From a virus: a stretch of DNA of 64,000 nucleotides. A program made the translations under genes and the position numbers. Where the stretch lies: the IMG/VR virus record IMGVR_UViG_3300017613_002557, positions 1-64,000 of that record; one strand, written 5' to 3'. Position 1 is the first letter of the stretch; each line of letters opens with the position of its first letter. Positions 129 to 32,821 of the stretch are shown piece after piece. The notes beneath the pieces are model-generated. The model had not been told where the DNA came from, made no database searches, and was given only the letters and a program-made list of their open reading frames with translations.

Positions 129-1121
129 GGTGAACGCACGTGAATTACTCAGATTTCTTTATGGGTAGTGCGGACATTTTGACTTGCAAGTATTTATGAA
201 ATAATGGATTGTAGGATCTCTCATGTACCAAAACAGGTTCCTGAAGATGGATTTTTGACCTCGGTACATGCAAGATTTAGGCAACTGATCGCGGGAAATA
301 TGCTGCTATGCTCAATTGTTGATGTCCTGACTTTTACGACTATACGGGCGTTTTCAGGAGTAGAAAAGTGCTGTTAAATCGCAAAAACTGACGCAGGTGA
401 ACGCACGTCAACCGTGGCGGACATTTCCGATCCTGGGATCCCCCACTATCAGGGGATCTAAAAAATCGAAGGTGAACGCACGTGAATTACTCAAATATGA
501 TGCGAAGAATGCTGTTTTTAGTGAAAAACCTGAAGTTGACTGCTATTAGGCGGTATAGCTGGAAATATGTGCATAGCCATGCACGTAATAAAAACGGTTT
601 AGGTGAACTAACGTGAACCGTGACGGACATTTTCGATCCTGGGATTGACTGCTATTAAGGGATCTAAAAAATCGAAGGTGAACGCACGTGAATTACATGA
701 GAAGTTAGGTGAACTAACGTGAACCGTGACGGACATTTTCGATCCTGGGATCCCCCACTATCAGGGGGTCGAAAAAATCGAAGGTGAACGCACGTGAACA
801 TTGATCTGAGGAGGAAGATGAGGAGGAGGAGGAGACGTGAACTTACATCGACTGTAAAAGGGGATTTTTAAGAGGATATTTGGGTGTTGAAAGATCGTGT
901 AAGCTACTAATCCACAGGAGGTTGCAAGGCAAAATGTCCGCACTCATCAAAGTGCTGAGTAATTCACGTTAGTTCACGGGGTGAACTAACGTGAACCGTA
1001 AACGCACTTTTTACGCGGGCATTTTAGAAGGGGAGAGATCATATAACTACTTACTTTACATGCACATGCAAGGCAAAATGTCCTACCTTGCTACAATCTG
1101 AGTAATTCACGTGCGTTCACC
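129..1121. repeat. Non-coding repeat element with terminal inverted repeats and internal ~95-bp direct repeats
   Basis: GGTGAACGCACGTGAATTACTCAGATT (129-155) is the exact reverse complement of 1095-1121; ~95-bp unit at about 396-492, 602-696 and 708-797; head-to-head copy TTCACGTTAGTTCAC-GGG-GTGAACTAACGTGAA at 963-995. Confidence 0.9.
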
Positions 1122-1156
1122 TGGTTGAAAAAAAATATGCTATACTCATTTTTTTC

Positions 1157-16324: not shown

Positions 16325-16476
16325 ATATTACCAGAGCGTGGAAAGTTTGTCAAGAAAAAAGTTTCCTAAAAATATTTTTTCCTTTTCCCCTTACATTATT
16401 ATATATATGCGTTTTTAAAAAAAACTTGAAAAAGAGGTACTTTTTTCTTGACAAACTTTTTTAGATATGCAATACT
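16325..16476. promoter_or_regulatory. Divergent promoter pair
   Basis: Minus strand TTGACA-N17-TAATAT (16353-16325); plus strand TTGACA-N17-AATACT (16448-16476); AT-rich spacer. Confidence 0.75.
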
Positions 16477-16531: not shown

Positions 16532-17404
16532 ATGATACAAGGTCGGTTAGTTAAAAAGAATGCACCAAAAAAACCAACACTGAAAAAATTGGTTGCTGGG
16601 CTCTGTGACGCAAGCACATTTGAAGCAGCAAAAACCAGCATCGTGAAATATCTGGATGCAGCCGGGGAACGTGTCATTCCTGAGTTTATCAAAGTCATCA
16701 CAGATGAACTTGCACAGAAAGAGCACGTTGCGGATGAAAAGAAAGAGCTTAACGCGTCAGCAAAACTTCACGATCAGACCGTGAAGGTCTTAAAAGATGA
16801 AATCCTGCTCAACTATGTACTCACTCATGGCGAAGCCGGAGCAGGAACGTCCAGGTTTTTGCGTTGCGGTGAAGCGCTCGTTATGGTGAGTGCAAGAGCA
16901 GGCACAAAAGACGGCAAGCTTGAGATATTCAACCAAAAGCCACAGGATTATGAGATGGATGGAATCCGTGTAACAAACCTCAAGCCGCAGACCCCGGATC
17001 TGTACAAACGGGTGGTCGCGCAGGTGACATTTCCTGCTGTTCAGATCGATGAAGAGGTTAAACACTTCATCGAATACGCAAAAAAACGGCAAAGCGCAAC
17101 TGTCGGGTTTCGGGTGGAAGGAATCGAGATCAACACTACAAAGGATTCCGAATCTGCCGCATTACGAAGCTTACTTGACGGAAAAACAACCTATGGGTAT
17201 ATTGAGATCACAGAGGATCTTGCTACCAATGACATGACTATTCCAGCAGGCGGCATTTATAAAATTGTCGGTAGCTCAAATGGGAATACTGGAATACGAA
17301 TCAATGACATGTTGATAACTGTTCCGGCAGCATCATGCACACCCGTTGAGTGGTGCAGGCTTACGTATCCGAAACAGATCAGTTTCAAAGAAAACAAAGA
17401 GTAA
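16532..17404 (+). CDS. hypothetical protein; coiled-coil N-half reminiscent of Gp157/Gam-like proteins
   Basis: GAGGT RBS; helical segment ELAQKEHVADEKKELNASAKLHDQTVKVLKDEIL; family call weak. Confidence 0.55.
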   Translation: MIQGRLVKKNAPKKPTLKKLVAGLCDASTFEAAKTSIVKYLDAAGERVIPEFIKVITDELAQKEHVADEKKELNASAKLHDQTVKVLKDEILLNYVLTHGEAGAGTSRFLRCGEALVMVSARAGTKDGKLEIFNQKPQDYEMDGIRVTNLKPQTPDLYKRVVAQVTFPAVQIDEEVKHFIEYAKKRQSATVGFRVEGIEINTTKDSESAALRSLLDGKTTYGYIEITEDLATNDMTIPAGGIYKIVGSSNGNTGIRINDMLITVPAASCTPVEWCRLTYPKQISFKENKE

Positions 17405-17428
17405 TTTCGTCAACCCTCATAGGAATAC

Positions 17429-17731
17429 ATGTTTACCACACTGGAAGAAATTTATGAAATTTGTGAGCGCCGCTTGCAAATAGACAGGGACCGTATACGG
17501 TTCCTGCGAATAGGAAAGTGGGTCCACGTATCAATTGATAACGGACCTCCTGTTTGTGGCAACAAAGTGAAAGAAGGGGCATGTAAATTTTCTGTGATCA
17601 GTCAAATCCGCACTGCATGTTTATGTCGGCACTGCATGGAAATGTGTGGTGCTATTTTACAAAACATGAACATGCAAGACGATATTAGACAAGTCACAAT
17701 CTATGACATGCTAAATCAACACCATGAATGA
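17429..17731 (+). CDS. Cys-rich hypothetical protein
   Basis: AGGA RBS; CLCRHC. Confidence 0.55.
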   Translation: MFTTLEEIYEICERRLQIDRDRIRFLRIGKWVHVSIDNGPPVCGNKVKEGACKFSVISQIRTACLCRHCMEMCGAILQNMNMQDDIRQVTIYDMLNQHHE

Positions 17732-18011
17732 AGAAAATGCATCTGGCAGTGTCGTATCCGTAACGGGCAATGAAAAAGGTGATGTGGATAAGGTTTTGGA
17801 GATGGTTATTGCTCAGGCTGAAGAGCTTGTCCCGAAAATCATTGAGAACATTGCGCGTACCATGAACAAATCATCTTTTGGAATCCGGGTGGAGGCTGGG
17901 TATAACAAAGAGGATGAACTGGTTGTGAAGGTGTCCGGGGCCGCGAACCTCCCAACAGAAAGCACTGAGATGGCGGGCGAGATCCTGGAAGGGAGATTGC
18001 GTTTGTGGTGA
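17724..18011 (+). CDS. hypothetical acidic protein
   Basis: Overlaps the upstream stop. Confidence 0.6.
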   Translation: MNEENASGSVVSVTGNEKGDVDKVLEMVIAQAEELVPKIIENIARTMNKSSFGIRVEAGYNKEDELVVKVSGAANLPTESTEMAGEILEGRLRLW

Positions 18012-18154
18012 GATAGTATCGTCACGAACATAACACGAATTAAGAGGACGCGAACATGAAAACACGAATTGTACGAGCCATGTTTTGGATCGCATCTGTC
18101 ATCACATTAATTGTAATAATGACAGGCTGCACACTGTATTATTAATGACTGTCT

Positions 18155-18189
18155 GCCGGTGGTGGGAGGCATACCCCACCACCGGCAGT
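18155..18189 (+). terminator. Strong hairpin (14-bp stem)
   Basis: CTGCCGGTGGTGGG-AGGCATAC-CCCACCACCGGCAG. Confidence 0.55.
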
Positions 18190-18200
18190 ATACCGGCATT

Positions 18201-18665
18201 ATGAAACATTTTATTACATACCCAGGCAAGGTACTTTACGAAAGAAACCAAATAGAACCGGGAATGCTTGTGTACGGACTGGTCAAGAAAGACTGGTTTA
18301 AAATGAAGGTTTTACGCATAAGCACCAACACGGCGCTTTGTAGAGATGTCTGTACAGGACAAGGCAGACGCCCAAACTTAAACTGTCATACTCGCGTTGT
18401 ACGTCGTGATCTTGTGGACACTGACAACGTTAAACTGCTTTGGGTTCTCTGGATGCGGTATGGTAATAATAGCCCAAAACGTAATGACAACGCCCACCAT
18501 TTAATCCAGCATATCCTCGAACAAAAAGAAACTGACTTGCAGCAGGAATACAGAACTTATGCCAAGCAGATGGCAGAAGAAAGCCTTAACCGTCTTGGCG
18601 AGGTGTTAAATGTCGTCTGGATTAGGGGCGTGTTGTTACAATCAACAGATGAGGTATCCATATGA
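18201..18665 (+). CDS. hypothetical protein
   Basis: ATG after the hairpin; ATGA overlap with next gene. Confidence 0.6.
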   Translation: MKHFITYPGKVLYERNQIEPGMLVYGLVKKDWFKMKVLRISTNTALCRDVCTGQGRRPNLNCHTRVVRRDLVDTDNVKLLWVLWMRYGNNSPKRNDNAHHLIQHILEQKETDLQQEYRTYAKQMAEESLNRLGEVLNVVWIRGVLLQSTDEVSI

Positions 18666-20203
18666 TTATTTTAGATATGCGTTACATAGCTCATAAAAAG
18701 GAATATGAGCGCAACCATCACGGCGACAACAACCCCCTTGGCATATTTTTTGGCATCAACAAAAAACTTAAGAGGGATGAAGAAACAATGGAGCATGGTG
18801 TGTGTGTGTTTTACTCACTCGATGCCATTACAGCACGGTTTCCCGATATAGATATTTCGGCACATGAGTTTGAATTGGACGAAGAATTAGAGACGATGAG
18901 CGCCGATGTTGAAAATGATGTCTATGATAGTGATGGGCTGCTCGATATATTCCATTCAAATGAGTATGTGTTTGGCGATATTGCCGCATCACTTATTGCC
19001 GCACATCCGGAAGAAAACCATGTTCTCGTAACCTCAAAAATAAGGGCGTTGCAACTCCTTTCTGACAAGGTATTCCTGTTTACGAATGGGAAGTTTTACG
19101 GTATAAACGACGCACACAACGAATATGGCATCACTGAGTTTCGTGATTTCCGCGTCATGACTGGGGATCGAAAATTTCTTCCTGGCATCAAAGGAATTGG
19201 GGAGAAAGGAGCCATCACATTGCTCCAACAGTACAAATCTCTTTATGGAATCTGTGCGAACGTTGCAAAACTTCCAGCCCGGTATGCGAAAATATTTGCG
19301 GATTTGATGCCAGCTACTTTTCATCAAATAATCTTTGACGGCAACTACCATATAGATGTGCCACTTGTCGAAGACACCACAACTGAGCTTGAAAAAACTG
19401 CTGAGATATTCAGGAATGCTATTGATCTTGGGGCTGGCGAGTCTGTGCTGTCCTTTGATCTTGAAACCACAGGGGCAGATATTGCGAAAGACAGAATCGT
19501 CCAACTACATGCCGTACTGATCTACCCAGACCGTACCGAGTCAATCGAGTATCTGATCAACCCAGACATTCCAATAGCCGCAAGAGCTACGGATGTACAC
19601 GGCATTACAGATGATATGGTGTCAGATGCTCCGACATTTCCAGATGTTGCACTTGAGGTTTTGGAGTTTTTTGAACGCGGCACCTATTGGATGGGATACA
19701 ATTCTAATTCGTTTGATATTCAGATCCTCATGAGAGAGCTTGATCAGGCAAAAAAATGGGGCGCATTCAACAACACAGAAAAAAACTACCAGGACGTTGT
19801 TGAGCAGGCAAAACTTATCGACGTAATCAGGCTAGAGCGGCATATCAACTCCCATAAACTCGAATGTGTCTACAAACGCTATTATGGTCGCCCGCTTGAT
19901 GATGCTCACGATGCTGGTGCAGACAATCTCGGAACAATCAAGGTGCTTGCGGCACAAGTAAAGTCGTCACAGCTTCTTTCAAGCGCACTCAGCGAGCTTT
20001 CTGAATTATCACGAGGTAATTCTGTGGATGTTGCCGGAAAGCTGGAACTAGATCCGTTTTCAAATGAAATCGTGTTTGCGTTTGGTCCCAAAAGAGGTGA
20101 GCCGGTCAAAGATTATCCAGGACTTGTCAAGTGGATGGAAGAAAAGGGGTTTCCACGTGATACGGTACGCATTGCAAAAGAATGTTGTAAGGGAAGAACG
20201 TAA
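18662..20203 (+). CDS. fusion of a PolI-type 5'-3' exonuclease-like (H3TH) domain and a DEDDh 3'-5' exonuclease (DnaQ-like)
   Basis: MTGD..LPGIKGIGEKGAITLLQQYKSL (H3TH); FDLETTG, GYNSNSFD, HDAGAD (DEDDh). Confidence 0.85.
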   Translation: MIILDMRYIAHKKEYERNHHGDNNPLGIFFGINKKLKRDEETMEHGVCVFYSLDAITARFPDIDISAHEFELDEELETMSADVENDVYDSDGLLDIFHSNEYVFGDIAASLIAAHPEENHVLVTSKIRALQLLSDKVFLFTNGKFYGINDAHNEYGITEFRDFRVMTGDRKFLPGIKGIGEKGAITLLQQYKSLYGICANVAKLPARYAKIFADLMPATFHQIIFDGNYHIDVPLVEDTTTELEKTAEIFRNAIDLGAGESVLSFDLETTGADIAKDRIVQLHAVLIYPDRTESIEYLINPDIPIAARATDVHGITDDMVSDAPTFPDVALEVLEFFERGTYWMGYNSNSFDIQILMRELDQAKKWGAFNNTEKNYQDVVEQAKLIDVIRLERHINSHKLECVYKRYYGRPLDDAHDAGADNLGTIKVLAAQVKSSQLLSSALSELSELSRGNSVDVAGKLELDPFSNEIVFAFGPKRGEPVKDYPGLVKWMEEKGFPRDTVRIAKECCKGRT

Positions 20204-20205
20204 TA

Positions 20206-20244
20206 TTTTATCACAACTCACTTGTGACAATAATATTGTTATGC
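20206..20244 (+). mobile_element. attI-like recombination site, copy 1
   Basis: TTTTATCACAACTCACTTGTGACAATAATATT-GTTATGC; 32/39 identical to 31220-31258; ends in a GTT core at the head of an attC-containing array. Confidence 0.6.
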
Positions 20245-20397
20245 GTCTACTCCTAAGCGTGTAAACGGTGACTCAGCCAGAGCATGAGCAGGACGAGTGA
20301 AGGCGATACCCGCAGAGCCACAACGCTGCAAGGAACTGTGCCGAAATCGACACCGTGACAAGCCGGGAGAGACCGGCCTTAGAAGTAGACGCATAAC
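20238..20397 (+). ncRNA. structured RNA unit, C4-antisense-RNA-like, closed by a 20-bp stem
   Basis: GTTATGCGTCTACTCCTAAG (20238-20257) pairs with CTTAGAAGTAGACGCATAAC (20378-20397), one mismatch; 3' GTGACA-AGCCGG-GAGAGA-CCGGC hairpin recalled as the C4 RNA 3' signature. Confidence 0.55.
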
Positions 20398-20406
20398 TGA
20401 AGTGAT

Positions 20407-20589
20407 ATGACAGAGAAAGAATATATTTCAGCCGCAAACCGAGTAAAGGTTTCAGCAGCATTAAAAATCTTATGTGATGTTTTGCCAGGTGACGAATACG
20501 GTATTTCTGATATAGAATTATCTGAAATCACAAGCAGGTTGGCGGTAGCGGAAGACAAGCTCTTTCAGTCTTATGAATGCACCGCATAA
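20407..20589 (+). CDS. small cassette-borne hypothetical protein
   Basis: Stop TAA lies inside the attC R'' box (GCA-TAA-C), as is typical of integron cassettes. Confidence 0.7.
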   Translation: MTEKEYISAANRVKVSAALKILCDVLPGDEYGISDIELSEITSRLAVAEDKLFQSYECTA

Positions 20590-20713
20590 CAATCCATTGC
20601 ACAATGAGCGAAACCGCAGTCTGTAGTTTCGACATTGTGCTTTCGCGAACGGCATGGCGGTTCATCCGGGTTCGTTGCCCGTTCTGTTTCGCCATGTGAA
20701 TGGGGCGTTATGA
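20584..20713 (+). mobile_element. attC site (130 bp)
   Basis: R'' GCATAAC ... R' GTTATGA; CCATT(G)CACA pairs with TGTGAATGG and ATG(A)GCGAAAC with GTTTCGCCAT, giving the expected unpaired bases. Confidence 0.9.
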
Positions 20714-20740
20714 GGCTTTAGTAAATACAAAGGAGTGGCC

Positions 20741-20938
20741 ATGAAGGAATATATATTTTCAGCAGAAGTTACGGTGTCAGCCATTACACGAGTTATGGCA
20801 AATAGTGAAGAAGAGGGACGTGAAATCGTTGAAGGTCGTAATGTTGAAATCGGCGGTTGGGGTTCTGGTGCTAGTGACAAAGAATCATGAGTTATTAAAG
20901 ACGCTGATGGCGAAGCTCAACACATTCATTGTTGCTGA
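20741..20938 (+). pseudogene. small cassette gene interrupted by an in-frame TGA at 20888-20890
   Basis: AAGGAG RBS, MKEYIFSAEVTVSA...SDKES*VIKDADGEAQHIHCC*; the second stop abuts the recA RBS. Confidence 0.5.
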
Positions 20939-20951
20939 GAGGAGGAAGAGT

Positions 20952-21971
20952 TTGAGCGAGAATACTACCGAACTTCGTAATGAACACACAACAAGAAAAG
21001 AACTAGCAACTGAACTTATACGCCGATTCGGACCGTCCGGATGCGTCCACATGAACGGCGTACCACACCCAGTCATTTCAACTGGCTCACACGTGCTGGA
21101 TCAGATGACGGGGATTTACGGAATCCCGGGCGGAAGAATCACGGAGATTTCCGGTGATTTTTCAACCGGCAAGTCAACAATGGCACTTCAGATTATCCGA
21201 TCGGCGCAAGCATCCGGAGGTGCAACCGCGCTGATCAATGCTGAGTATTGTTTTAGTGAACGATACGCAGCACAACTAGGCGTCAACACAAAAGATCTGG
21301 TTTTGCTTGAACCGGAGACGTTTGAGCAGGCGTTTGACATGGCTTATAAACTTATCGCATCTGGTGGGCTTAGTGTGCTGGTTGTTGATTCATTTCCTGC
21401 TCTTCTGCCAAAAGAAGAACAGATTGGCGATATGGGAGATACTGTTAGTATTCATGGAACACTGGCGAGACAAGGCATCTGTAAAATTCTGGCAGCCGCA
21501 AGTAAGAACATGTGCGCTGTGGTGATCGTCAATCAACTCCGATATAGAAATATCGCCAGATGGAATGAAGAACCAAACTGGGTAGAAATTACGCCGGGAG
21601 GAAACGTACTCAAGTTCTTTACCTCTCTAAAAATTAGTCTTAAAACAATACACCAGTCAGATGAAAAACAAGTAATTAGAGCGGCTGTGACAAAAAACAA
21701 TCTCGGTCGGCCGACTGGCGTAGTGATGACGCAGCTAAATTACGGGCATGGCTTTACGAACGGCGATATATTTATTTGTGATCTATGCAGGCAGCACTAT
21801 CTGCCAAGAAGAACCAGGTCACTATTTTCAGGATACTGTAAATGTGGATCTTGCGGAGAATGGTCTGGCGGACATTCGTATTCAAAAGATTTTCTTTCAG
21901 AAACCAAATTAATATTGAGGGAACAGCTTGACATCCTCCCAGGGCTAAAGCACCTGGGATTCCCGATTTAA
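20952..21971 (+). CDS. recA: RecA-family recombinase (divergent) with C-terminal Cys cluster
   Basis: ISTGS..LD...GIPGGRITEISGDFSTGKST, NAE, VVDS, NQLR, TPGGNVLKFF; GAGGAGG RBS with TTG at 20952. Confidence 0.92.
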   Translation: MSENTTELRNEHTTRKELATELIRRFGPSGCVHMNGVPHPVISTGSHVLDQMTGIYGIPGGRITEISGDFSTGKSTMALQIIRSAQASGGATALINAEYCFSERYAAQLGVNTKDLVLLEPETFEQAFDMAYKLIASGGLSVLVVDSFPALLPKEEQIGDMGDTVSIHGTLARQGICKILAAASKNMCAVVIVNQLRYRNIARWNEEPNWVEITPGGNVLKFFTSLKISLKTIHQSDEKQVIRAAVTKNNLGRPTGVVMTQLNYGHGFTNGDIFICDLCRQHYLPRRTRSLFSGYCKCGSCGEWSGGHSYSKDFLSETKLILREQLDILPGLKHLGFPI

Positions 21972-22050
21972 CGGGTGGTTACTACGCAAGAGGCTGCTCC
22001 CGCAGAATCGAAATTCTTTGGAAGTCTGACGCCTTGACCGTAGATTGACG

Positions 22051-22172
22051 CGGTGTGTCTTCTTCTAATGGCAGGATGCTTTCACTGAGCCATCCAGTGC
22101 TCTGTTAAAATATGGGGCGCTGTGGTGCTGGAGTGGGTAATGTGTGCTTCGATACACACAGACACACAGCCA
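22051..22172 (+). ncRNA. tRNA-like RNA with an oversized anticodon arm
   Basis: Acceptor GTGTGTCT/AGACACAC, D arm TTCT-AATGGC-AGGA, T arm GTGTG-CTTCGATA-CACAC, 3' CCA at 22170-22172; ~60-nt hairpin replaces the anticodon arm. Confidence 0.5.
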
Positions 22173-22180
22173 TTGAAACT

Positions 22181-22774
22181 ATGCAAAATTTAATTCCGAT
22201 CACACTGGGCGAAATAATGGAGTTGTGTGATGATGACCCATATCAATTTGACACAACAGAAATGCTTGATGATCGTGGCTATAAGGTCATCACTACATAC
22301 GCAGAGTATATGAGGAATCCAGAGACACTGTGTAACAGCCTCGTCTATGTAACACCTGACACACTTACATGCCTTAGATGTCCAGAGGAACATCAGGCAG
22401 AAACACCTGACACTCACATTGTCCGTATTGAAACGACGTTTCTCGATGAGGATGAGGCTGTCGTCAAAGACAACAAACTTACCATAGCAGCAACAAAATA
22501 TCTTACGCTTGTGCCGATGATACCGTATATGCTTGCAACTGGTGTGTCCATTTCGTATGACGACGACTTGACCGGAATTGCAGTACCAGCAGAAACACTG
22601 GGATTAGAAGATATGGTTATTCTTCGGGCTGATATTCCGAACCATATTGGTCCGATTCGTTTGATCATGATGAATGTGTCAGACAAAACTGTTGTCATTC
22701 CTACAGACACACCGCTTGTGAATATTATTTTTTTGGCTACTTATGAGGTGAAATTTGAACAAGACCATCTTTAG
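22181..22774 (+). CDS. degenerate dUTPase/dCTP-deaminase-fold protein
   Basis: C-terminal IPNHIGPIRLIMMNVSDKTVVIPTDTPLVNIIF matches the trimeric dUTPase pattern; RSG and GxIDxDY motifs absent. Confidence 0.5.
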   Translation: MQNLIPITLGEIMELCDDDPYQFDTTEMLDDRGYKVITTYAEYMRNPETLCNSLVYVTPDTLTCLRCPEEHQAETPDTHIVRIETTFLDEDEAVVKDNKLTIAATKYLTLVPMIPYMLATGVSISYDDDLTGIAVPAETLGLEDMVILRADIPNHIGPIRLIMMNVSDKTVVIPTDTPLVNIIFLATYEVKFEQDHL

Positions 22775-23021
22775 TAAACGAAATTTTATATTTGGCGCAG
22801 TTCTCGGAATTGCCGTGATGTTTGGGGTAGACGTTGGGATTACCGGGTTTTTAATCGGGGCTGTTATGGCAGTCCTTTCGTTATTGGTCGTCAACATACT
22901 GGACATCATGAATTCAATGCTTGCCGTGATACGTGAGCATTCGCAACTACTGGAAGATTTTGCGAACATCATAAGGACGGCGTCTTCTGTTGACACCGAG
23001 GAGGAAAAACCTGATGATTAA
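22755..23021 (+). CDS. small membrane protein (two TM segments)
   Basis: FIFGAVLGIAVMFGV...FLIGAVMAVLSLLVV; GAGGTG RBS. Confidence 0.65.
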   Translation: MNKTIFSKRNFIFGAVLGIAVMFGVDVGITGFLIGAVMAVLSLLVVNILDIMNSMLAVIREHSQLLEDFANIIRTASSVDTEEEKPDD

Positions 23022-23167
23022 GCCATTTTTCTCAACAAAGTTTGGACATATTTATCACGGCGATTGTAGGAAAATCGTGTGTGATCTGCTCTTTCCTGAA
23101 TTCGATCAGTACCACATCATCATGTTAGTTGAAAACATCACAGTATCAGGTCTATACGAGGAATAGA

Positions 23168-23701
23168 ATGGAGAATATTAAAGAACGTGTTCGAGAGATG
23201 TTGAAACAACGGATTGCCGTGTTGGATGTTGAAACGACCGGGCTGAATGCTCGTTATCATAAAATTGTGGAGATTTCGATCATTGGGAAAGGGAAAGTCT
23301 CTCTTCTGTCCACACTTGTCAACCCCTGTGTGCATATATCTGATGATGTTTCTAAGATTCATGGTATCCGTGATCATATGGTCAGGGATGCCCCTAAAAT
23401 GCACGATCTTCTTCCCAAAATACACGAAATCTTAAAGGAAATTGATATTGTATTCGCATACAACGTGCATTTTGACAAAGGGTTTATAGCTGCGGCTGGT
23501 GTGGATACTGATCTTTGCAAGTGGCAATGTGCGAAGAAACTGTTTCAAGAATATCGGCGTGTATTTATGTGGAGAAAGGGCAATATTTCTCTAGGTAATG
23601 CCTGTAGAGAAACAGGCATTACCTTAACAGTGGCACATCGCGCAGAGAATGATACGGCTGTAACCCTGGAACTTCTTGAGTACATGGCGCAAGACCATTA
23701 G
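23168..23701 (+). CDS. DEDDh 3'-5' exonuclease
   Basis: VLDVETTGL, AYNVHFD, AHRAEND. Confidence 0.92.
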   Translation: MENIKERVREMLKQRIAVLDVETTGLNARYHKIVEISIIGKGKVSLLSTLVNPCVHISDDVSKIHGIRDHMVRDAPKMHDLLPKIHEILKEIDIVFAYNVHFDKGFIAAAGVDTDLCKWQCAKKLFQEYRRVFMWRKGNISLGNACRETGITLTVAHRAENDTAVTLELLEYMAQDH

Positions 23702-31219: not shown

Positions 31220-31258
31220 TTTTATCACGAGTAAGTCGTGACAATTATATTGTTATAC
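31220..31258 (+). mobile_element. attI-like recombination site, copy 2
   Basis: TTTTATCACGAGTAAGTCGTGACAATTATATT-GTTATAC; GTTATACGCC matches the far cassette end GGCGCATAAC (31891-31900). Confidence 0.6.
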
Positions 31259-31452
31259 GCCTTGCGGCAGCGCAGTTCCTTGAAAAAAAAGTTTCTCCTT
31301 GTTTTCCTGTTATACAGGCGAAATCAGACACGGGGCAAAAATGTTTCATTTATTTTGTTTAATCTACTTGACAAATTAAACAAAAAGACTTATTGTGTAT
31401 ATTACAAGACGGAAACAAGGTAAAACAAACAATCAAAACAAGGAGAAAAATC

Positions 31453-31683: not shown

Positions 31684-31889
31684 AGAAAGAAACGAGAGGT
31701 GGCGCAGGCAGGAATCAAGGCTTGCGCCCCGGAACCTATAAAAACGCACAGAAGCCGCCGGAATTTAAGCATAGTATCAAAAAGCAAGTAAGCTACACGC
31801 CGGAACAGTGGCAGCGTGTAGAGGCAAAAATGAAAGAATACGGCATAAAGAAATTTAGCGATTATGCCAGAATGTTAACTTTATCATAG
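31680..31889 (+). CDS. small DNA-binding protein (RGG..GR N-terminus, RHH-like C-terminus)
   Basis: RGGAGRNQGLRP...KKQVSYTPEQWQRVEAKMKEYGIKKFSDYAR. Confidence 0.7.
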   Translation: MKKETRGGAGRNQGLRPGTYKNAQKPPEFKHSIKKQVSYTPEQWQRVEAKMKEYGIKKFSDYARMLTLS

Positions 31890-31893
31890 CGGC

Positions 31894-31955
31894 GCATAAC
31901 AAAAAATTGTACGCGACCGGAAAAAGCGCCCGGCGCGTAAATTTCGCCGTTATGC
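31894..31955 (+). mobile_element. attC site (62 bp)
   Basis: GCATAAC...GTTATGC; AAATT(G)TACGCG(A)CCGG pairs with CCGGCGCGTAAATTT with two extrahelical bases. Confidence 0.93.
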
Positions 31956-31977
31956 AACTTATGTTTGGAGGTAACGC

Positions 31978-32718
31978 ATGAAAATAGAACAACATATTTT
32001 AGATATAATCGAAGAAGGCAAAACAGACGGGAATTTATTTTTTCTGCCAAATCGTCAGCTTGACCGCAAGGTTTACCAGGATGTAAACAAGGTTCTTGGG
32101 TGTCTCGGAGGAAAGTGGAATCGGAAATTTAAGGCCCATGTGTTTGAGTCTGATATTTCAGGCGCTATTGATGATGTACTTTTAACCGGCGAAGTTATTA
32201 GCAAGAAACAAGAGTTTCAGTTTTTTGAAACGCCGGAACCTATTGTCAACCAACTTATCGAATTAGCAGAAATTGAAGTAGGGCATAAATGTCTTGAACC
32301 TTCTGCCGGTCATGGGAATATCGCTGAAGCATTGCGCGAAATTGTTGGCGATAACGTGACGTGTGTTGAAATGATGCCGGAAAATGTTGCTGTCCTTGTA
32401 AGCAAAGGTTTTCAGGTGCATGAAGGTGACTTTTTGCAGTATCTTTCCGGCGTAGGTTATGACAGAATTATCATGAATCCTCCATTCACACGACAACAGG
32501 ACATCGCCCATGTCGAAAAAGCTTTAATGCATCTGAAGGATGGCAGTATTCTTGTTTCTGTGATGTCTGTCGGCGTAACGTTTCGACATGACAAAAAGAC
32601 AACTGACTTTTGGTATAAACTTAGTGGATACGATTATGAGATTATTGAGTTGCCAATAGGAGCGTTTAAGGTTTCCGGTACTATGGTCAATGCAATAATC
32701 TTGAAGGTCGTTGCATAA
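31978..32718 (+). CDS. cassette-borne amino (N6-adenine-type) DNA methyltransferase-like protein
   Basis: FFETP, LEPSAGHG (motif I), IMNPPF (motif IV), AFKVSGT.V; stop inside attC R''. Confidence 0.9.
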   Translation: MKIEQHILDIIEEGKTDGNLFFLPNRQLDRKVYQDVNKVLGCLGGKWNRKFKAHVFESDISGAIDDVLLTGEVISKKQEFQFFETPEPIVNQLIELAEIEVGHKCLEPSAGHGNIAEALREIVGDNVTCVEMMPENVAVLVSKGFQVHEGDFLQYLSGVGYDRIIMNPPFTRQQDIAHVEKALMHLKDGSILVSVMSVGVTFRHDKKTTDFWYKLSGYDYEIIELPIGAFKVSGTMVNAIILKVVA

Positions 32719-32821
32719 CAACCGCTTGCAGCCAGATTTGACCGCGTGGGTTCAAATCTGGCTGCTAAATTACAAGCTTCGGTGGCGCGTGGGTTCAAAC
32801 TGCTGAAGCGGAACGTTAGTA
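32713..32821 (+). mobile_element. attC site (109 bp)
   Basis: GCATAAC...GTTAGTA; CCGCTT(G)CAGC(C)AG(A)TTTGA pairs with TCAAACTGCTGAAGCGG. Confidence 0.88.

What the first reader, a model, noticed from the sequence alone, without database searches (positions are those of the whole stretch)
20238..20397. Gene-less RNA cassette: C4-like RNA whose closing stem is built from the recombination cores
The first unit after attI-like copy 1 has no credible ORF. It is enclosed by a 20-bp inverted repeat whose outer 7 bp are GTTATGC and GCATAAC, and it ends in GTGACA-AGCCGG-GAGAGA-CCGGC, which I recall as the 3' hairpin of phage C4 antisense RNAs (antirepressor control in P1/P7). Inference: a regulatory RNA is being moved as a cassette. 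No attC body follows its GCATAAC, so it may now be fused to the next gene.
Basis: partly seen in the sequence, partly recalled or inferred. Interest (0 to 1): 0.72.

Follow-up and report, generated by a model that had tools for sequence, protein, structure and literature searches.

The report
Gene-less cassette-like insert, not C4
A 160-base gene-less stretch in an uncultured phage is closed by a real 20-base inverted repeat, but it is not a C4-type regulatory RNA; it looks most like a gene-less unit in an integron-like cassette region, and any RNA role is unproven.

Summary
The sequence features are real. Arms 20238-20257 and 20378-20397 pair at 19 of 20 positions. They enclose 120 bases with no credible ORF and 60% G+C, in a 44.5% G+C phage. 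The quoted 3' hairpin is present.

The C4 reading fails. Rfam 15 gives no C4 or c4-a1b1 match even at E=10, while the same settings find both in phage P1. No loop-to-target complementarity exists, and the downstream genes are a 60-aa ORF and recA, not icd/ant.

The inner 120 nt fold no better than shuffled sequence, so only the closing stem is significant. No homologue was found in phage, plasmid, viral, metagenome or genome collections. Five other phages carry the downstream 60-aa gene without this element.

The outer heptamers GTTATGC and GCATAAC are the same ones that close three attC-like hairpins in this phage. They lie in cassette polarity, and neighbouring gene-bearing units show the same end-to-end complementarity on a smaller scale.

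Best reading (about 0.4): a gene-less, foreign-composition, cassette-like DNA unit. It is transcribed passively inside the rightward operon, where its stem would be an RNase III-type substrate.

This scan reached similar conclusions on other phage DNA (e1-3409547, e1-3446537, e1-3411831).

The parts
20206..20244 (.). 39-bp hairpin motif directly after the exonuclease stop codon (TAA 20201-20203), ending in GTTATGC. A second copy lies at 31220-31258.
   Evidence: Two copies found against 0 expected; alignment. The hairpin is TCACAA-N5-TTGTGA, with a compensatory A-T to G-C change in copy 2. It is 9 bp with one G.T/G.U on the minus strand.
20238..20257 (.). Left arm of the 20-bp inverted repeat. 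The first 10 nt (GTTATGCGTC) are still shared with copy 2 of the hairpin motif (GTTATACGCC).
20258..20377 (.). Inner 120 bp: ORF-less, 60% G+C, only 10% T on the + strand. Its fold is not better than shuffled sequence.
   Evidence: ORF tests
20362..20377 (+). Hairpin GCCGG-GAGAGA-CCGGC, which stacks directly on the closing stem.
   Evidence: C4 consensus for comparison
20378..20397 (.). Right arm of the inverted repeat, ending in GCATAAC. It is followed at once by the translation start region of ORF60, with no attC-like body.
20407..20589 (+). ORF60, a small conserved phage gene. Its stop codon lies inside the next GCATAAC (20584-20590). CGCATAAC at 20583-20590 also complements the element's first 8 nt.
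   Evidence: Homologues at 37-77% identity; 8-nt match
20584..20717 (.). attC-like hairpin: GCATAAC ... GTTATGA base (6 of 7 pairs), a short unpaired spacer, a 5-bp second box, then two inner hairpins.
   Evidence: ssDNA fold z -4.0; listed
31894..31955 (.). attC-like hairpin of the second array: GCATAAC ... GTTATGC, an internal loop, then a second stem with one bulged base.
32713..32821 (.). Third hairpin of the same family (GCATAACAA-N-TTG ...

Best explanation
The 160-bp stretch is a gene-less DNA unit of foreign composition. It sits in the position of a cassette body within an integron-like part of the phage's replication and recombination module, where genes are separated by attC-like hairpins.

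Its 'closing stem' is the unit's two ends. The left end is the GTTATGC core that terminates the preceding hairpin motif, plus 13 nt. The right end is the complement of those 13 nt plus a GCATAAC core. Gene-bearing units in the same phage show the same self-complementarity of ends, 3 to 4 bp beyond the core. When such a unit is single-stranded or circularised, its ends would pair and lengthen the recombination hairpin.

This unit has lost, or never had, an attC-like body on its right side, and is now fused to the ORF60 unit. The recombinase is not in the 90 kb available.

Because all neighbouring genes read rightwards, the unit is transcribed as an untranslated intercistronic segment. There its 19/20-bp helix would form a double-stranded RNA long enough for RNase III, which would separate the exonuclease message from the ORF60-recA message.

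Shown: the repeat, the lack of an ORF, the composition, the shared cores and their polarity, and the absence of the element from other phages carrying ORF60. Inferred: mobility, the recombination mechanism, transcription, and RNase III cleavage.
For: - The repeat is 19/20 and single-copy in the 90,004-bp record.
- Inner G+C is 0.60, against 0.445 for the window, 0.39 for ORF60 and 0.44 for the exonuclease gene.
- The outer heptamers equal the cores of attC-like hairpins at 20584-20717 and 31894-31955. As ssDNA these fold into a 7-8 bp base, a short unpaired spacer, and a second stem with a bulge or branches.
- The arms lie in the order GTTATGC...GCATAAC, which is the polarity of a cassette body, not of an attC.
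- Units 31252/31894 and 31949/32713 extend the core complementarity by 3 bp, unit 32815/33101 by 2 bp, and this element by 7 bp exact (12 of 13 in all).
- GTTATRC/GYATAAC heptamers cluster at gene boundaries at 20.2-20.7 kb and 31.2-32.7 kb.
- ORF60 homologues in five other phages (37-68% identity) sit directly behind another ORF with no such element and no shared neighbours. The element is therefore a lineage-specific insert and ORF60 is itself a travelling gene.
- Clusters of attC sites without an integrase, including methyltransferase cassettes, are published for phages (PMC9892861). ORF-less integron cassettes are known (PMC6557892).
- Genes from 16532 to 23701 all read on the + strand.
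Against: - No attC-like body or GTT core follows the right arm, so it is not an intact cassette.
- No tyrosine recombinase is found in the record, which is about 70% complete.
- GTTATGC does not fit GTTRRRY strictly.
- Against a relaxed background (any GTTANNN...NNNTAAC pair), extensions of 3 bp or more number 4 where about 1.9 are expected. The pattern is significant only for the narrower class, which was chosen after looking.
- No second copy, empty site or relative shows mobility.
- No attC covariance model could be run here.
- A 13-bp outward extension is far longer than in the other units.
- High G+C in an AT-rich genome is also what a selected structured RNA would show.
Confidence: 0.4

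Rival explanations
1. It is a dedicated structured RNA. It could be a cis-acting intercistronic or leader element (a processing or stability site, or an antitermination-type leader for ORF60-recA). It could also be a roughly 125-150-nt stable RNA released from the operon transcript by cleavage of the closing stem. The shared heptamers would then be incidental or secondary.
For: - It forms the G+C peak of the 5.5-kb neighbourhood.
- It is ORF-less and lies in a co-directional operon.
- The closing stem has pair probability 0.99, with a hairpin stacked on it.
- The + strand is purine-rich and U-poor, like a sense strand.
- A weak sigma-70-like TTATCA-17-TAATAT lies just upstream (my own reading).
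Against: - The inner 120 nt fold no better than shuffles (z -1.7 and -1.4).
- There is no Rfam family at E<=10.
- The single-sequence covariance model found nothing in 99 related loci.
- The element is absent upstream of ORF60 in five other phages.
- No terminator follows it.
- The upstream motif is unlike the phage's strong promoter class ttttttcTTGACA-17-TAnnnT.
- The one mismatch in the stem is C.A on + and G.U on -, so the sense strand is not favoured.
Confidence: 0.25
2. It is a C4-type antisense RNA. Loops of a stem-enclosed RNA would pair with target sites in the downstream message and repress translation of an antirepressor-type operon.
For: Only the topology (a long closing stem around internal hairpins), a small ORF downstream in the same transcript, and a GCCGG/CCGGC stem.
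Against: - No C4 or c4-a1b1 match at E<=10 on 701-nt and 186-nt stretches. The same search on P1 gives 68.8 and 51 bits.
- The element is 160 nt, against a model length of 87.
- No complementarity of 7 nt or more to the start regions of ORF60, ORF49 or recA, and no outstanding target genome-wide.
- ORF60 is unrelated to Icd, and the downstream genes are recA and a weakly dUTPase-like ORF.
Confidence: 0.02
3. It is a miniature inverted-repeat transposable element (MITE), or another transposase-mobilised element with 20-bp terminal inverted repeats.
For: Its size, terminal inverted repeats, lack of an ORF and foreign G+C.
Against: - It is single-copy in the phage.
- The repeat-pair pattern is absent from one genome of each of 185,579 species, and there is no blastn match in plasmids or phages.
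- No target-site duplication is seen.
- The outer 10 nt of the left repeat belong to a motif repeated at 31220-31261 with different sequence downstream.
Confidence: 0.05
4. It is an invertible DNA switch: a 120-bp segment flipped between the 20-bp inverted repeats by a site-specific recombinase.
For: The repeat length and spacing resemble short invertons. A small serine recombinase gene lies at about 74.7 kb.
Against: There is no promoter-like site inside the segment. The arms resemble nothing near the recombinase gene or elsewhere in the genome. No reads could be obtained to look for the flipped form.
Confidence: 0.05
5. It is a relic without present function, such as a recombination scar or the decayed end of a gene that once preceded ORF60. 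In other phages the upstream ORF overlaps the ORF60 start by ATGA, and here the 37-aa + frame does so too.
For: The ATGA overlap of the + frame with ORF60, the same arrangement in L099, L100 and L102, and the inner fold not being significant.
Against: A 19/20 repeat is very unlikely by chance and would decay without selection or recent origin. No protein similarity was found for any frame.
Confidence: 0.15

Closest known systems
ORF-less integron gene cassettes, and clusters of attC sites lacking an integrase (CALINs) in phages (PMC6557892; PMC9892861)
   Same: It is a gene-less unit among single-gene units of one orientation, separated by imperfect hairpins whose bases are GTT.../...AAC heptamers. 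Each unit's 5' end complements the core at its own 3' end. No integrase lies nearby.
   Different: It has no attC body of its own. The end complementarity is 20 bp rather than about 7. The core GTTATGC deviates from GTTRRRY. No attC model, recombination assay or integrase is available. The units lie inside a core replication and recombination module, next to recA.
C4 antisense RNA of P1/P7 (Rfam RF01695) and its a1b1 target element (RF03163)
   Same: A long closing stem encloses internal hairpins, a small ORF follows on the same strand, and a GCCGG stem is present.
   Different: No model match; twice the length; no loop-target complementarity; no icd/ant operon. The P1 control scores 68.8 and 51 bits under the same settings.
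PeSL promoter-early / stem-loop cassettes of T4-type phages (PMC2839356, PMC4122927)
   Same: The 39-bp motif upstream begins at a stop codon in AT-rich sequence and carries a stem-loop between weak -35-like and -10-like hexamers. It is repeated at a second plastic locus, so repeats of this type could mediate modular shuffling.
   Different: There are only two copies. The hexamers match sigma-70 poorly (8 of 12) and differ from this phage's own strong promoter class. The motif is followed by a 160-bp ORF-less unit rather than a Shine-Dalgarno site and a gene.
RNase III processing stems in phage polycistronic messages (T7 early sites, lambda sib) and rRNA precursor stems; cited from general knowledge
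   Same: It is an untranslated intercistronic helix of about two turns, formed by sequences that flank a structured insert, 35 nt after a stop codon.
   Different: Cleavage is untested. The known phage sites are 50-60-nt hairpins, not a 20-bp stem around 120 nt.

Membership tests
C4 antisense RNA (Rfam RF01695 / clan CL00128) | Match to the family covariance model | tested here: not met
   No match at gathering score over the window. No match at E<=10 on 701 nt or 186 nt. The P1 positive control scores 68.8 bits against a gathering score of 45.
C4 antisense RNA (Rfam RF01695 / clan CL00128) | Loop sequences complementary to target sites over the ribosome-binding region of the downstream gene (a2/b2), with a1/b1 copies upstream | tested here: not met
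   No complementarity of 7 nt or more to the ORF60, ORF49 or recA start regions. No c4-a1b1 match. No outstanding site genome-wide.
C4 antisense RNA (Rfam RF01695 / clan CL00128) | Location upstream of an icd-ant type antirepressor operon | tested here: not met
   The downstream genes are ORF60 (no similarity to P1 Icd), ORF49, RecA and a weakly dUTPase-like ORF.
C4 antisense RNA (Rfam RF01695 / clan CL00128) | Discrete roughly 77-nt RNA processed from a longer transcript | not testable with these tools
   No sequencing run was listed.
Integron gene cassette / attC (59-base element) | The unit begins at G|TTRRRY and ends with its own attC (RYYYAAC, second box, variable loop, second box, GTTRRRY) | tested here: not met
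   It begins at GTTATGC, but after GCATAAC (20391-20397) the ORF60 start region follows directly. An attC-like hairpin appears only after ORF60, at 20584-20717.
Integron gene cassette / attC (59-base element) | The 5' end of the unit is complementary to the inverse core at its own 3' end | tested here: met
   19 of 20 with 20378-20397 and 8 of 8 with 20583-20590. Units at 31252/31894, 31949/32713 and 32815/33101 do the same.
Integron gene cassette / attC (59-base element) | Neighbouring sites fold as single strands into a core stem, an unpaired spacer, and a second stem with extrahelical bases | tested here: met
   ssDNA folds of 31888-31961 and 20580-20721 show this geometry (z -2.6 and -4.0). 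This tests geometry only, not a trained attC model.
Integron gene cassette / attC (59-base element) | Recognition by an attC covariance model (IntegronFinder / HattCI) | not testable with these tools
   No attC model is in Rfam or among the tools.
Integron gene cassette / attC (59-base element) | An IntI-type tyrosine recombinase next to the array | tested here: not met
   No PF00589 match at E<=1 in the 90,004-bp record, which is about 70% complete. If it is integron-type at all, this would make it a CALIN.
MITE | Multiple copies sharing terminal inverted repeats, plus a target-site duplication | tested here: not met
   Single copy. Repeat pattern absent from genome contigs. No blastn match in plasmids or phages. 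No duplication at the flanks.
Retron msr-msd RNA | An adjacent reverse transcriptase gene | tested here: not met
   No RVT_1 match at E<=1 in the record.
PeSL (promoter-early stem-loop) motif; applies to the upstream 39-bp motif | A strong sigma-70 promoter combined with a stem-loop, repeated many times in plastic regions | tested here: inconclusive
   The stem-loop and stop-codon context are present in 2 copies. The hexamers match only 8 of 12 and differ from the phage's strong promoters.

The most novel reading that the evidence does not exclude
The element is a gene-less cassette whose cargo is a structured RNA. It would be carried and shuffled by an integron-like system without a nearby integrase that operates inside a phage replication module and also moves ORF60 and perhaps recA. 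The cassette's own self-pairing ends would double as the RNase III stem that releases a roughly 125-nt stable RNA from the operon transcript.
Probability: 0.1. Interest if true: 0.65.

Novelty: new member of a known kind. Interest (0 to 1): 0.33.

Why it matters
If the cassette reading holds, this phage adds a gene-less unit to the small set of integron-like cassette regions known in phages. It also places such units next to core recombination genes, which bears on how phages exchange small genes. It is a useful caution as well: a long 'closing stem' around an ORF-less G+C-rich core can be the two ends of a DNA unit rather than a sign of a regulatory RNA. As an RNA finding it is weak, because there is no family, no homologue, no covariation and no transcript evidence.

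Tried and rejected
**Rejected readings**
- C4 family membership: rejected by Rfam, with a P1 positive control.
- tRNA or tmRNA: none found.
- Retron: no reverse transcriptase.
- MITE: repeat-pair pattern absent from genome contigs; no blastn match in plasmids or phages.
- Antisense targets: blastn-short and RNAduplex over the 90 kb gave nothing above background. A 10+5-nt match to 31265-31282, just after copy 2 of the hairpin motif, did not rank among the best duplexes. No match to downstream start regions.
- Coding alternatives: Pfam, exact look-up (my + strand coordinates in that call were wrong, so only the two minus ORFs were validly tested), a word-index search of the + frame, and a full HMMER search of the 51-aa minus frame, which gave one repetitive 1335-aa hit judged spurious.

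**Searches for relatives**
- Exonuclease protein in viral contigs and metagenome contigs gave only relatives at 39% identity or less.
- RecA gave none in viral contigs, and its nearest database relatives are 34-42% identical.
- Four DNA patterns from the element or the motif gave nothing in viral contigs. A fifth gave two chance hits in AT-rich DNA.
- The ORF60 alignment found nothing in genome contigs.
- The single-sequence covariance model R1 found nothing in 99 loci.

- The look-up of sequencing runs: none was listed, and no RNA holder was listed.

**Side check**

Full report
**What is there**

The window is the first 64 kb of a 90,004-bp IMG/VR virus record, estimated about 70% complete.

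Positions 20238-20397 lie between two genes:
- Upstream is a 513-aa gene with 5'-3' exonuclease and RNase_T/DnaQ exonuclease domains (18662-20203).
- Downstream is a 60-aa ORF (20407-20589), followed by a structured intergenic region, a 49-aa ORF and recA.

All genes from 16532 to 23701 read on the + strand.

The inverted repeat is exactly as described. The arms 20238-20257 and 20378-20397 pair at 19 of 20 positions and lie 120 nt apart. By my own estimate such a repeat is expected less than once in a thousand windows of this size.

The quoted string GTGACAAGCCGGGAGAGACCGGC is at 20354-20377.

The inner 120 bp have 60% G+C, against 44.5% for the window. They form the G+C peak of the neighbourhood. 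On the + strand only 10% of these bases are T.

**No gene**

The open frames are:
- 37 aa on the + strand. It has a GTG start, a poor ribosome-binding site, and a stop that overlaps the ORF60 start as ATGA.
- 51 and 62 aa on the - strand, neither with a ribosome-binding site.

None has a Pfam family. The + frame has no homologue among 5.8 billion clustered proteins. The 51-aa - frame gives one repetitive, low-complexity hit among 1.84 billion representatives, which I regard as spurious. The two - frames are not among the proteins called on the source record. ARAGORN finds no tRNA or tmRNA.

**Is it a C4 RNA?**

No.
- Rfam 15 gives no match at gathering thresholds anywhere in the window.
- With permissive filters and E up to 10, it gives no C4 or c4-a1b1 match on a 701-nt stretch or a 186-nt stretch.
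- As a control I fetched the P1 immI region and ran the same search on a stretch of equal length. C4 scored 68.8 bits (E 3e-13) and c4-a1b1 scored 51 bits.

The C4 consensus does contain a GCCGG/CCGGU stem. There it is the second internal hairpin and is followed by UUGCCAACCCC. Here the hairpin is preceded by GUGACAA. The recalled likeness is therefore a shared five-base stem and nothing more.

The features that define how C4 works are also missing:
- No loop is complementary to the start regions of ORF60, ORF49 or recA.
- No target stands out in the 90 kb.
- ORF60 is unrelated to Icd.
- No antirepressor follows.

**Is it a structured RNA at all?**

The whole element folds far better than shuffles on both strands (z -5.4 on +, z -6.6 on -). 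This comes from the closing stem alone. The inner 120 nt give z -1.7 and -1.4.

The single mismatch in the stem is C.A on the + strand and G.U on the - strand, so the sense strand of the operon is not favoured.

No terminator follows the element. The sequence just upstream can be read as a weak TTATCA-17-TAATAT promoter. It is quite unlike this phage's evident strong promoters, ttttttcTTGACA-17-TAnnnT.

High G+C in an AT-rich genome is what a selected structured RNA would show. It is equally what imported DNA would show.

**Comparative evidence**

The phage is an orphan.
- Its exonuclease has no relative above 39% identity in viral or metagenome contigs.
- Its RecA has none above 42% identity.
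- The element has no blastn match in phage or plasmid collections.
- Its sequence blocks occur in no viral contig.
- A covariance model built from the single sequence found nothing in 99 fetched loci.

ORF60 was the one useful handle. It also has relatives at 37-68% identity in five viral contigs with G+C from 34 to 64%.

In all five contigs the gene sits directly behind another ORF, often overlapping it, with no 160-nt element. No other neighbour is shared with this phage.

So the element is not a conserved leader of this gene family, and ORF60 is itself a gene that travels between phages.

**The ends and their context**

The left arm begins inside a 39-bp motif (20206-20244) that starts right after the exonuclease stop codon. 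The motif recurs at 31220-31258, right after another stop codon. There are two copies where none is expected by chance.

The motif holds a hairpin with a compensatory A-T to G-C change between the copies. The hairpin is 9 bp long on the minus strand, with one G.T pair. Similarity between the copies continues through GTTATRCGYC and then stops. The outer 10 nt of the 'closing stem' therefore belong to this repeated motif, which argues against a transposon-type insertion.

The heptamers GCATAAC and GTTATGC also form the bases of intergenic hairpins at 20584-20717 and 31894-31955. A third hairpin of the same family lies at 32713-32821. As single strands the two folded here (20584-20717 and 31894-31955) give a 7-8-bp base, a short unpaired spacer, and a second stem with a bulged base or branches. 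This is the geometry of integron attC sites.

In an attC the order is ...AAC then GTT.... In the element the order is GTT... then ...AAC, which is the polarity of what lies between two such sites, that is, a cassette body.

Gene-bearing units in the second array show the integron hallmark that a unit's 5' end complements the core at its own 3' end, here prolonged beyond the core:
- GTTATAC-GCC with GGC-GCATAAC.
- GTTATGC-AAC with GTT-GCATAAC.
- GTTAGTA-GTGC with GTAC-TGCTAAC.

The element does the same over 13 more bases. Its first 8 nt also complement CGCATAAC at the end of ORF60.

Statistically this is suggestive rather than overwhelming. Among all 119 relaxed GTTANNN...NNNTAAC pairs in the genome, four extend by 3 bp or more where about two are expected. 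The case rests on the narrower class that sits at gene boundaries.

No tyrosine recombinase is present in the 90 kb. One small serine recombinase lies at 74.7 kb.

**Reading**

The most economical account is that the 160 bp are a gene-less unit of foreign composition, sitting where a cassette would sit. Its 'closing stem' is its two self-complementary ends. It lacks an attC-like body of its own and is now joined to the ORF60 unit.

Published precedents exist:
- Clusters of attC sites without an integrase, some with methyltransferase cassettes, in virulent and temperate phages (PMC9892861).
- ORF-less cassettes in integrons, some acting as promoters or encoding small RNAs (PMC6557892).
- PeSL promoter/stem-loop motifs that mediate modular shuffling and mini-circle formation in T4-type phages. 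These resemble the 39-bp motif in layout but not in promoter strength or copy number (PMC2839356).

Earlier notes of this scan on other phages reached the same kind of conclusion for 'rod-closed RNA' candidates and arm-bracketed genes. I treated these as leads. They agree with what I had found, but they are not independent evidence.

Because the unit lies untranslated inside a rightward operon, it will be transcribed. A 19/20-bp helix is a plausible RNase III substrate. This is an inferred consequence of the structure, not evidence of a dedicated RNA function.

I put about 0.4 on the cassette-like reading, 0.25 on a dedicated RNA element, 0.15 on a functionless relic, 0.05 each on a MITE and an invertible switch, and 0.02 on C4.

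**Limits**

No relative, no reads and no transcript data could be obtained. No attC model was available. The recombinase is unknown. The decisive data are the two unread contigs with the closest ORF60 relatives, and the reads of the source metagenome.

Noticed in passing
window 129-1123: A cluster of direct and inverted copies of AGGTGAACGCACGTGAATTACTCAGATT (up to 27 nt exact), with a second set of GTGAACTAACGTGAA repeats. It looks like an iteron-type array for a replication origin or partition site.
   Followed up: no
window 16342-16459; also 1147-1164/3757-3774, 42479, 60684 and genome 66156: A conserved strong promoter class, ttttttcTTGACA-17-TAnnnT. At 16342-16459 two copies face each other as a perfect 21-bp inverted repeat 76 nt apart. 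This is probably the divergent promoter pair that starts the rightward replication operon.
   Followed up: partly
window 21966-22110: The intergenic region after recA is bounded by ATTTAAC ... GTTAAAA (6 of 7 complementary), with the recA stop codon inside the first heptamer. It may be another hairpin of the attC-like kind. As an RNA it is unremarkable: fold z -0.64, no tRNA, no Rfam match of note.
   Followed up: partly
   Followed up: no
window 20407-20589 and loci L098-L102: ORF60 belongs to a small phage protein family (MTExEYI.A.NRVKVS.AL.IL.DVL) with no Pfam or PHROG model. It occurs in phages of 34-64% G+C with unrelated neighbours.
   Followed up: partly
window 18662-20203 and 23129-23701: There are two DnaQ-like exonuclease genes (both phrog_192). 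The first is fused to a 5'-3' exonuclease SAM-fold domain.
   Followed up: no
G000 74576-75142 (outside the window): A small serine recombinase (Resolvase domain, 25.6 bits). It is the only site-specific recombinase found among the two families searched (Pfam Phage_integrase and Resolvase).
   Followed up: no
window 20297-20410: The 37-aa + frame inside the element ends in TGA overlapping the ORF60 ATG (ATGA). Real upstream ORFs show the same coupling layout in L099, L100 and L102. It may be a trace of an older gene junction.
   Followed up: partly
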